Source: the human T2T-CHM13v2.0 reference genome, Homo sapiens. From it: a stretch of DNA of 64,000 nucleotides. The stretch is taken from NCBI RefSeq assembly GCF_009914755.1, contig NC_060943.1; one strand, written 5' to 3'. Positions 6,237 to 6,768 of the stretch are shown piece after piece. How positions within the stretch are numbered: the first letter of the stretch is position 1; each line of letters begins with the position of its first letter. The notes below the pieces were generated by a model that was given only the letters and a program-made list of their open reading frames with translations, ran no database searches and had not been told where the DNA came from. Made by a program: the position numbers and the translations under genes.

Positions 6237-6768
6237 GATGAGTTCCACCCGTTCATCGAGGCACTGCTGCCTCACGTCCGCGCTTTCTCCTACACCTGGT
6301 TCAACCTGCAGGCGCGGAAGCGCAAGTACTTCAAGAAGCATGAAAAGCGGATGTCGAAGGACGAGGAGCGGGCGGTGAAGGACGAGCTGCTGGGCGAGAA
6401 GCCCGAGATCAAGCAGAAGTGGGCATCCCGGCTGCTGGCCAAGCTGCGCAAGGACATCCGGCCCGAGTTCCGCGAGGACTTCGTGCTGACCATCACGGGC
6501 AAGAAGCCCCCCTGCTGCGTGCTCTCCAACCCCGACCAGAAGGGCAAGATCCGGCGGATTGACTGCCTGCGCCAGGCTGACAAGGTGTGGCGGCTGGACC
6601 TGGTCATGGTGATTTTGTTTAAGGGGATCCCCCTGGAAAGTACTGATGGGGAGCGGCTCTACAAGTCGCCTCAGTGCTCGAACCCCGGCCTGTGCGTCCA
6701 GCCACATCACATTGGAGTCACAATCAAAGAACTGGATCTTTATCTGGCTTACTTTGTCCACACTCCGG
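6237..6768 (+). CDS. NFIX: NFIX exon 2 (532 nt): NFI/CTF DNA-binding and dimerisation domain
   Basis: Translates [30 protein letters not shown]...[13 protein letters not shown], the NFI N-terminal domain with NFIX-type residues. Polypyrimidine tract + ctgcag| acceptor at 6236; CCGG|gtaggt donor at 6769. Phase 0 to 1. Confidence 0.99.

What the first reader, a model, noticed from the sequence alone, without database searches (positions are those of the whole stretch)
6237..6768. Exon-2 circle encodes a hidden 219-aa ORF that crosses the back-splice junction twice and contains the whole DNA-binding domain
Seen: exon 2 is 532 nt (3n+1). An out-of-frame ATG at 6646 (ctgATGG, preceded by an in-frame TGA at 6610) runs 41 codons ([41 protein letters not shown]) to the last exon base, 6768. 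In a back-spliced circle the next codon is GAT at 6237, the native NFIX frame. It reads all 177 codons (DEFHPF...VHTP), crosses the junction again as G|GA (Gly) and stops at TGA 6239-6241: 41+177+1 = 219 aa. Known (recalled): an exon-2 circNFIX is abundant in heart, muscle and brain, and NFI DNA-binding/dimerisation domains lacking the C-terminal region can act as dominant negatives. Inference: the circle could make a self-terminating NFI antagonist invisible to linear annotation. I cannot check whether this has been reported.
Basis: partly seen in the sequence, partly recalled or inferred. Interest (0 to 1): 0.8.

Follow-up and report, generated by a model that had tools for sequence, protein, structure and literature searches.

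The report
Unproven long ORF on circNFIX
The well-known circular RNA made from NFIX exon 2 really does carry the 219-codon reading frame described, but comparable exons give such frames by chance about one time in four and nothing yet shows this one is translated.

Summary
The arithmetic is right. Exon 2 (6237-6768) is 532 nt. On a single-exon circle, ATG6646 reads 41 out-of-frame codons, then all 177 native codons, then Gly and TGA 6239-6241: 219 aa, about 25.4 kDa.

The circle is the published circNFIX, hsa_circ_0005660. The 177 codons are NFIX residues 10-186, which include the crystallised DNA-binding domain.

The frame is no more than chance gives:
- 13.8% of 20,000 synonymous permutations keep it.
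- 25 of 100 comparable chr19 exons give the same twice-crossing frame, and 13 of 38 non-repetitive 3n+1 exons do.
- Only NFIX among the four human NFI paralogues has it from this ATG.

The leader matches no Pfam family, and ATG6646 has C at -3. A linear alt-ORF shares all 41 leader residues.

Six searches aimed at translation or coding of this circle, plus the two that listed its papers, found no circNFIX protein. A 2025 rat study lists circ-Nfix among polysome-associated circles with predicted ORFs.

Most likely this is a by-product frame on a non-coding circle. A DBD-only NFI antagonist remains possible, at about 8%.

The parts
6237..6768 (+). NFIX exon 2, the body of circNFIX (hsa_circ_0005660), 532 nt
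   Evidence: Splice sites and length. Identity with the published circle. The mouse counterpart is also 532 nt.
6646..6768 (+). 41-codon out-of-frame leader of the 219-aa circular frame, starting at ATG6646 (C at -3, G at +4)
   Evidence: No Pfam family. 4.5 kDa, pI 10.8, hydrophobic C-terminal dozen residues. The same 41 residues begin a 64-aa alt-ORF on the linear mRNA.
6237..6767 (+). 177 native codons, NFIX residues 10-186: NfI_DNAbd_pre-N plus the MH1-like DNA-binding domain
   Evidence: Pfam, (E 5.2e-25 and 1.8e-11). PDB NFIX chains 7qqd and 9qky match exon residues 4-167 and 5-177. Numbering checked against residues named in PMC12630593.
6239..6241 (+). TGA that ends the frame after the second junction crossing. 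It is preceded by a Gly codon made of base 6768 plus bases 6237-6238.
   Evidence: The same GGA-then-TGA geometry is present in all 4 human NFI exon 2 sequences.
6610..6612 (+). Last frame-1 stop upstream of ATG6646; it bounds the leader frame
   Evidence: frame-1 stops at exon indices 139, 250, 373.
6351..6353 (+). Native-frame ATG giving a rival 140-aa circle frame (about 16.1 kDa). It is also the annotated start codon of three linear RefSeq transcripts.
   Evidence: Conserved in all 4 paralogues. C at -3 and T at +4. The ATG is predicted to be paired, unpaired probability 0.046.
6606..6608 (+). Native-frame ATG with the best Kozak context on the circle (G at -3, G at +4); 55-aa frame
6238..6240 (+). 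Frame-1 ATG two bases after the junction; 46-aa frame

Best explanation
The 219-codon frame is a by-product of geometry on a known circular RNA. Exon 2 is coding, so its native frame is open by definition. Its length is 3n+1, so anything read to the exon end in the +1 frame drops into the native frame on the next lap. The +2 frame then closes at once, because the exon begins GA-TGA. All that is needed is one ATG after the last +1 stop. Here it comes from an Asp-Gly pair in which Asp is spelled GAT. circNFIX most likely acts as an RNA, as the published work describes (miRNA binding, YBX1 binding). The frame is either not translated or translated only in traces with no selected function. Shown: the frame, the circle, the domain content, the chance rates and the paralogue comparison. 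Inferred: that it is not used.
For: - Chance level. 13.8% of 20,000 synonymous permutations keep such a frame. 25 of 100 comparable chr19 exons have one, 15 of 74 after removing the three genes that contributed more than 2 exons, and 13 of 38 for 3n+1 exons.
- Paralogues. All four human NFI exon 2 sequences are 532 nt with the same GGA-then-TGA ending. The index-409 ATG is present in 3 of 4 (absent in NFIC, where Asp is GAC). Its frame is open to the exon end in only 1 of 4; NFIA and NFIB stop after 5 codons. NFIA has an unrelated ATG 9 nt before its exon end that gives a 181-aa frame of the same kind. So the geometry recurs, but this start does not.
- No sign of a start site. The leader has no Pfam match. 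ATG6646 has C at -3. Predicted accessibility is 0.371 against a circle mean of 0.369, and the circle's folding energy is not lower than shuffles, z = +0.61. No Rfam family, IRES families included, matches within the exon at E <= 1.
- Literature on circNFIX. The primary papers I opened hold no mention of an ORF, IRES, coding potential or peptide for circNFIX. A 2024 review table of validated circRNA-encoded proteins has 0 mentions of NFIX.
- Literature on circRNA translation in general. [quoted passage not shown] The rat re-analysis found no ribosome-associated circRNAs at all in footprint data.
Against: - Rat circ-Nfix is among the 20 most abundant of 123 polysome-associated circRNAs in a hippocampus re-analysis, out of 8,350 credible circRNAs. 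Its authors name it as having translational potential.
- The circle is abundant and 88% cytoplasmic. In most rat tissues it exceeds the linear transcript.
- ATG6646 has G at +4 and is itself mostly unpaired, 0.638. There are 8 DRACH motifs on the circle.
- The encoded domain is intact and is stable when made alone.
- Chance-level occurrence does not exclude use. I had no Ribo-seq, proteomic or orthologue DNA data.
Confidence: 0.75

Rival explanations
1. circNFIX is translated from AUG6646, crossing the junction twice, to give a 25.4-kDa protein: a 41-aa novel leader, NFIX residues 10-186, and Gly. Lacking the transactivation region, it occupies NFI sites or pairs with full-length NFI proteins and antagonises them.
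For: - The frame and domain content are as stated.
- Residues 10-186 include the minimal DNA-binding domain and L175, Y178 and L179 of the swapped dimerisation helix.
- The first 13 residues of NFIX are reported as dispensable for DNA binding, so replacing the exon-1 residues need not hurt.
- NFI-B3, a 22-kDa NFIB isoform, is reported as a dominant negative towards NFIB, NFIC and NFIX.
- Rat circ-Nfix associates with polysomes. The human circle is cytoplasmic and abundant.
Against: - Chance-level occurrence.
- The start and leader are not shared by paralogues.
- Weak -3 position. No known initiation element was found.
- No report of such a protein in the searches made.
- The product stops 7 residues short of the construct shown to bind DNA as a dimer, and deleting 177-193 lowered affinity.
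- The leader ends in a hydrophobic stretch directly abutting the domain, with unknown effect on folding.
- General Ribo-seq surveys argue against circRNA translation.
Confidence: 0.08
2. If the circle is translated at all, initiation is at a native-frame ATG. One candidate is ATG6351, the annotated start of three linear isoforms. It gives 140 aa, residues 48-186 plus Gly. The other is ATG6606, which has the best Kozak context and gives 55 aa. Either would yield an N-terminally truncated fragment that crosses the junction once.
For: - ATG6351 is an annotated CDS start in NM_001365983.2, XM_054321073.1 and XM_054321072.1.
- ATG6351 is present at the same index in 4 of 4 paralogues, giving 140 aa in each.
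- ATG6606 has G at -3 and G at +4.
- The review says circRNA proteins usually start at a Met in the linear reading frame.
Against: - ATG6351 has C at -3 and T at +4 and is predicted to be paired, unpaired probability 0.046.
- Its conservation is explained by the conserved Met of the protein.
- The 140-aa product lacks the pre-N segment (exon residues 1-37), so it is unlikely to be a complete DNA-binding domain.
- There is the same lack of direct evidence for translation.
Confidence: 0.07
3. ATG6646 is used, but on the linear NFIX mRNA by leaky scanning. This gives a 64-aa alt-ORF peptide: the same 41 residues plus 23 from exon 3 in the +1 frame. Any leader peptides or +1-phase footprints would then come from the mRNA and not from the circle.
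For: The 64-aa frame exists on the spliced mRNA. Linear NFIX mRNA is capped and cytoplasmic.
Against: Several ATGs lie upstream on the mRNA. No family match for the leader. No data either way.
Confidence: 0.03

Closest known systems
circNFIX / circNfix (hsa_circ_0005660, mmu_circ_0001704)
   Same: It is the same molecule: exon 2 alone, 532 nt, with the junction joining 6768 to 6237.
   Different: Published functions are RNA-level: miR-214, miR-145-5p, miR-373-3p and other sponging, and YBX1 binding and degradation. None of the papers opened describes a protein product.
Validated circRNA-encoded proteins with frame-shifted termini, the class reviewed in 'Translation of circular RNAs' (PMC11724312)
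   Same: The principle is identical. A circle whose length is not a multiple of 3 changes frame at each lap, giving circle-specific N- and/or C-termini around a stretch of the host protein.
   Different: Those cases have polysome, mass-spectrometry, antibody or reporter support. This one has only a rat polysome listing. NFIX is absent from the review's text. The translated circNFIB listed there is a different circle, exons 3-6, 361 nt, and not the exon-2 homologue.
NFI-B3, the 22-kDa truncated NFIB isoform
   Same: An NFI protein reduced to about the N-terminal DNA-binding and dimerisation part, with no transactivation region. It is reported to act as a dominant negative on NFIB, NFIC and NFIX.
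   Different: It is made from a linear alternative transcript and has the normal N-terminus. I saw only a secondary passage, not the primary paper. That it arises from alternative RNA processing is recalled.
Noncoding 'AUG circRNAs' (Stagsted et al. 2019, PMC6487579)
   Same: Abundant, conserved circles with long flanking introns that contain a genuine start codon and part of the host ORF. circNFIX contains ATG6351, annotated as a start in some isoforms. It lies between introns of about 29 kb and 47.5 kb. No inverted repeat of 80 nt or more brackets it within window 1-30000.
   Different: That paper does not mention NFIX, 0 occurrences. Placing circNFIX in its 'ambiguous AUG' class is my inference.

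Membership tests
circNFIX (hsa_circ_0005660) | Back-splice of the NFIX exon 2 donor to its own acceptor; 532-nt single-exon circle | tested here: met
   Exon bounds and length. The published junction guide equals 6754-6768 followed by 6237-6244. '532 bases, exon 2'.
NFI DNA-binding domain (MH1-like) | Matches to Pfam NfI_DNAbd_pre-N and MH1 above the curated cut-offs | tested here: met
   87.5 bits (cut-off 27) and 44.6 bits (cut-off 25).
NFI DNA-binding domain (MH1-like) | Covers the experimentally defined minimal domain, residues 14-176 | tested here: met
   7qqd_A aligns to exon residues 4-167 and 9qky_A to 5-177. The numbering offset of +9 was verified.
NFI DNA-binding domain (MH1-like) | Holds the full C-terminal helix region (to residue 193) used for dimeric high-affinity DNA binding | tested here: not met
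   The product ends at residue 186 plus Gly. Contact residues L175, Y178 and L179 are present, but residues 187-193 are absent. The functional effect is unknown.
Translated circRNA (circRNA-encoded protein) | ATG-initiated frame spanning the back-splice junction | tested here: met
   219 aa, two crossings. It is at chance frequency.
Translated circRNA (circRNA-encoded protein) | Ribosome association of the circle | tested here: inconclusive
   Literature only. [quoted passage not shown] The human polysome work measured MEF2C mRNA and not the circle.
Translated circRNA (circRNA-encoded protein) | Junction-specific peptide, antibody signal or reporter product | not testable with these tools
No such report was found.
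Translated circRNA (circRNA-encoded protein) | Internal initiation element (IRES or m6A site) shown to work | tested here: inconclusive
   No Rfam match in the exon. 8 DRACH motifs. Average accessibility. None of these tests function.
Dominant-negative truncated NFI isoform (NFI-B3-like) | NFI N-terminal domain without the transactivation region | tested here: met
   The frame ends at residue 186 plus Gly.
Dominant-negative truncated NFI isoform (NFI-B3-like) | Protein is made in cells and inhibits full-length NFI | not testable with these tools
   This needs expression and reporter assays.
Selected coding sequence | Start codon and open frame conserved in relatives | tested here: not met
   Among the 4 human paralogues, only NFIX is open from the index-409 ATG to the exon end. 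Orthologue DNA could not be obtained, so conservation within NFIX across species is not tested.

The most novel reading that the evidence does not exclude
circNFIX is a bifunctional RNA. Besides binding miRNAs and YBX1, it is read by ribosomes from AUG6646 through two junction crossings. The product is a 25-kDa, self-terminating, DBD-only NFIX with a private 41-aa N-terminus, and it damps NFI-dependent transcription. Part of the published circNFIX knock-down phenotypes (cardiomyocyte proliferation, myogenesis) would then be protein-mediated. The leader and the new C-terminus would give circle-specific epitopes.
Probability: 0.07. Interest if true: 0.7.

Novelty: new member of a known kind. Interest (0 to 1): 0.2.

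Why it matters
NFIX dosage matters in development. According to the papers cited, loss-of-function and aberrant-C-terminus alleles cause distinct overgrowth syndromes; I saw only the titles in that reference list, and the dominant-negative reading is recalled. circNFIX can exceed the linear transcript in rat tissues. If the circle made a DBD-only protein, it would add a hidden antagonist to the NFI network and change how circNFIX knock-down experiments are read. As things stand, the lesson is methodological. A long frame that 'contains a whole domain' on a circle cut from a coding exon is expected by construction and is found in about a quarter of comparable exons. It is therefore not evidence of coding by itself.

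Tried and rejected
- Orthologue test. I looked for mouse or rat exon 2 DNA in papers. The mouse circle is given only by coordinates and in a figure, and the human/rat/mouse alignment is in a closed supplement. None of the DNA collections holds vertebrate genomes other than this reference, so conservation of ATG6646 across species stayed unchecked. Its power would be low among mammals in any case. Only 7 of 92 possible synonymous single-base changes in the leader region break the frame, so about 62% of lineages would keep it by chance after 6 such changes.
- Inverted repeats that might drive circularisation. 4 pairs of 80 nt or more lie in window 1-30000, all downstream of exon 2 (22.7-29.9 kb), and none brackets the exon. 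I did not search the 29-kb upstream intron beyond the window.
- Known RNA elements. The Rfam scan of 5900-7100 at E <= 1 gave 26 matches, none inside the exon and all below their gathering scores.
- The hairpin upstream of the acceptor. It folds no better than shuffles, z = -0.94, so I dropped it.
- Circular folding. No start codon stands out, and the circle is not unusually structured.
- A translated exon-2 circle of NFIB as a precedent. Rejected: the published translated circNFIB is exons 3-6, 361 nt. Another review calls its product a 56-aa protein.
- Structure prediction and homology search of the whole 219-aa product. Not done, because it is a joined sequence. Its two pieces were searched apart. 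The costly protein-database searches were not spent on the 41-aa leader.
- Literature limits. All 10 paper searches and all 15 paper slots were used. Subscription-only papers and supplements were not visible. These include the Huang 2019 supplement, Fig. 6D of PMC11961807 and Table S1 of PMC11724312. circRNA ORF databases (riboCIRC, TransCirc, circRNADb) could not be queried. That they list junction-spanning frames automatically is recalled, not checked.

Full report
**What is there.** Window 6237-6768 is NFIX exon 2, 532 nt, with a cag| acceptor and a |gtaggt donor. Its native frame encodes 177 residues. These match Pfam NfI_DNAbd_pre-N (residues 1-37, E 5.2e-25) and MH1 (60-160, E 1.8e-11). 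They align at full length to solved NFIX, NFIA, NFIB and NFIC DNA-binding-domain chains, 9 distinct PDB sequences.

Residue numbers in the NFIX structure paper equal exon index + 9. I checked this against I140, E143, H167, V170, I172, K173, L175, Y178 and L179. Exon 2 therefore encodes residues 10-186.

**The observation.** Reading the exon as a circle, ATG6646 is the only frame-1 ATG after the last frame-1 stop (TGA 6610-6612). It runs 41 codons to the last exon base, continues through all 177 native codons, then reads one Gly codon across the junction and TGA 6239-6241. That is 219 aa, about 25.4 kDa. Every number in the finding is correct.

The circle carries four other ATG-initiated frames:
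- 140 aa from ATG6351, native frame
- 55 aa from ATG6606, native frame
- 46 aa from ATG6238
- 12 aa from ATG6340

**The circle is real and already well known.**
- A published guide RNA against the circNFIX junction equals window 6754-6768 followed by 6237-6244 (passages of PMC11228373).
- PMC11697776 states exon 2, 532 bases, hsa_circ_0005660. It reports 60-64 copies per cell and 88% cytoplasmic location in human myoblasts (passages).
- The Circulation 2019 paper links it to mmu_circ_0001704 and reports >95% nucleotide identity among human, rat and mouse (passages).
- The mouse circle is also 532 nt.
- 389 held papers mention circNFIX.

**Is the frame more than chance?** No. I ran three controls.

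1. Synonymous permutation. Permuting synonymous codons within the exon keeps the protein and the codon usage. 13.8% of 20,000 permutations retain a frame-1 ATG that reads into the native frame.

2. Comparable exons.
   - 270 internal, wholly coding exons of the chr19 RefSeq 'select' transcripts are 250-1000 nt long with a length not divisible by 3.
   - 109 of these are 350-800 nt once NFIX and NFIC are set aside.
   - I fetched a random 100 and treated each as a single-exon circle.
   - 25 of 100 have an ATG-initiated frame that crosses the junction twice and holds the whole exon in its native frame.
   - 26 of the 100 exons come from three genes: FCGBP 20, PPP1R13L 3, PRR12 3. Without them the count is 15 of 74.
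   - By length class, that is 13 of 38 for 3n+1 exons and 2 of 36 for 3n+2.
   - 14 of the 25 leaders are at least as long as the 41 codons here.

3. Human paralogues. These were identified by a search of the window's own genome and by the gene table.
   - All four have a 532-nt exon 2 with the same GGA-then-TGA ending.
   - The ATG at index 409 is present in NFIX, NFIA and NFIB and absent in NFIC, where the Asp codon is GAC.
   - In NFIA and NFIB the frame from that ATG stops after 5 codons, so only 1 of 4 has this frame.
   - NFIA has a different frame-1 ATG 9 nt before its exon end. It gives a 181-aa frame of the same kind (the NFIB rows were on the wrong strand and are discarded).

The geometry recurs. 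This start and this leader do not.

**Signs of an initiation site.**
- ATG6646 has C at -3 and G at +4. The best context on the circle belongs to ATG6606, with G at -3 and G at +4.
- In a circular fold, the region around ATG6646 has mean unpaired probability 0.371 against 0.369 for the whole circle.
- The circle's energy, -192.5 kcal/mol, is not lower than 30 shuffles, z = +0.61.
- No Rfam family matches inside the exon at E <= 1.
- There are 8 DRACH motifs, which is unremarkable without methylation data.
- The 41-aa leader has no Pfam match. It is basic, pI 10.8, and ends in a hydrophobic stretch directly before the domain.

**What the product would be.** It would hold the minimal DNA-binding domain, residues 14-176. 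That construct is a stable monomer in solution. The first 13 residues were omitted from the published constructs as disordered and irrelevant for DNA binding (passages of PMC12630593).

Dimeric, high-affinity binding in that study used residues 14-193. A C-terminal helix is swapped between protomers through L175, Y178 and L179, and removing 177-193 lowered affinity. The circle product keeps those three residues but ends at 186 plus Gly. 'Whole DNA-binding domain' is therefore nearly right, and dimerisation strength is uncertain.

A truncated 22-kDa NFIB isoform, NFI-B3, is described as unable to bind DNA alone and as dominant negative towards NFIB, NFIC and NFIX (one passage of a bioRxiv paper citing the primary work). 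An exon-2-sized NFI protein acting as an antagonist is therefore plausible, if it is made.

**Evidence on translation.** I used all ten paper searches. Six were aimed at translation or coding of this circle:
- circNFIX with 'open reading frame': 67 papers
- circNFIX with 'Ribo-seq': 11 papers
- circNFIX with 'IRES': 90 papers
- circ-NFIX with 'translat': 18 papers
- NFIX with circRNA and polysome: 22 papers
- hsa_circ_0005660: 13 papers

The listings are nearly all reviews in which the terms co-occur without being linked.

The four primary circNFIX papers in which I searched for coding terms (PMC6629176, PMC11697776, PMC8666571, PMC12429993) hold no mention of an ORF or IRES for the circle. 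Nor do they mention its coding potential or a peptide. The polysome work in PMC11697776 concerns MEF2C mRNA. A fifth primary paper, PMC11228373, used the circle only for RNA-protein pull-down. A 2024 review whose table lists validated circRNA-encoded proteins does not mention NFIX, and a 2026 review cites it only in the reference list.

The one positive item is PMC11961807 (section 24 read whole):
- It re-analyses rat hippocampus polysome data. 123 of 8,350 credible circRNAs were polysome-associated.
- circ-Nfix is among the 20 most abundant of these.
- They name circ-Nfix as having 'translational potential'.
- The legend of Fig. 6D says it shows the 'predicted longest translated protein' for four circles. 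The figure is not held, so I could not confirm that circ-Nfix is one of the four.
- The same re-analysis found no ribosome-associated circRNAs in the footprint data.

Against this stands the general background. Stagsted et al. surveyed about 500 human and 1,300 mouse Ribo-seq samples, proteomics and reporters. [quoted passage not shown] NFIX is not named there.

On the linear mRNA, ATG6646 opens a 64-aa alt-ORF that shares all 41 leader residues. Leader peptides and +1-phase footprints inside 6646-6768 therefore do not prove circle translation. The first junction falls on an Arg-Asp bond, a tryptic site, so only a missed-cleavage peptide spans it. The diagnostic species are that peptide, the new C-terminus (Pro186 plus Gly), and junction-spanning footprints.

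Conservation among mammals would be weak evidence. Only 7 of 92 possible synonymous single-base changes in the leader region break the frame, so about 62% of lineages would keep it by chance after 6 changes. Loss of the frame would be informative.

Occurrence is at chance level, the start is not shared with paralogues, no initiation signal was found, and no product is reported. This makes a by-product frame on a non-coding RNA the best explanation (0.75). A native-frame start giving 140 or 55 aa gets about 0.07. Use of ATG6646 on the linear mRNA only gets about 0.03.

The kind of thing is known: a frame-shifting frame on a circle whose length is not a multiple of 3, as set out in the review. 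The circle itself is known, and its translational potential has been flagged in print. What I did not find in print is the specific two-crossing frame and the NFI-antagonist idea. Orthologue DNA, Ribo-seq, proteomics and paper supplements could not be examined.

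Noticed in passing
window 6351-6353: The native-frame ATG inside exon 2 is the annotated CDS start of NM_001365983.2, XM_054321073.1 and XM_054321072.1. These transcripts have a first exon at 5795-5898 with no in-frame ATG. circNFIX therefore contains an annotated start codon for some isoforms.
   Followed up: partly
window 5995-6236 and 6213-6215: Two RefSeq transcripts (NM_001365984.2, NM_001365985.2) start at 5995 and read straight through the exon-2 acceptor. 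Their start is ATG6213, which adds 8 residues before the first exon-2 codon. Transcripts of this form cannot give the circle, since the acceptor is not used.
   Followed up: partly
window 6769-7068: The native frame stays open for 100 codons into intron 2, 277 codons in all from the exon start. NFIA, NFIB and NFIC read through for 54, 33 and 39 codons. Intron-2 retention or early polyadenylation would give linear DBD-only proteins. No such NFIX transcript is in RefSeq.
   Followed up: partly
window 6077-6204: A purine-rich run followed by a pyrimidine-rich run just upstream of the exon-2 acceptor draws 26 sub-threshold Rfam matches. 25 are to miRNA-precursor models and one is to the Hsp83 3' UTR model. 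The best is 33 bits against a gathering score of 60. The stretch folds at -58.7 kcal/mol, but no better than shuffles, z = -0.94. This is a composition effect and not a known RNA.
   Followed up: yes
L005-L104 (chr19 control exons): Twice-crossing frames that hold the whole exon are much commoner in 3n+1 exons (13 of 38) than in 3n+2 exons (2 of 36) after removing repeat-rich genes. The frame that feeds the native one differs between the two classes, +1 against +2. I did not examine why their stop or ATG densities differ.
   Followed up: no
L002 (NFIA exon 2, locus 1501-2032): The NFIA exon-2 circle would carry a 181-aa frame: a 3-codon leader from an ATG 9 nt before the exon end, then all 177 native codons, then Gly. 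I did not check whether an exon-2 circNFIA is expressed.
   Followed up: no
window 22719-23740: A cluster of inverted repeats lies deep in intron 2. The arms are 137-178 nt and 81-87% complementary. They are probably neighbouring interspersed repeats in opposite orientation, and none pairs across exon 2.
   Followed up: no
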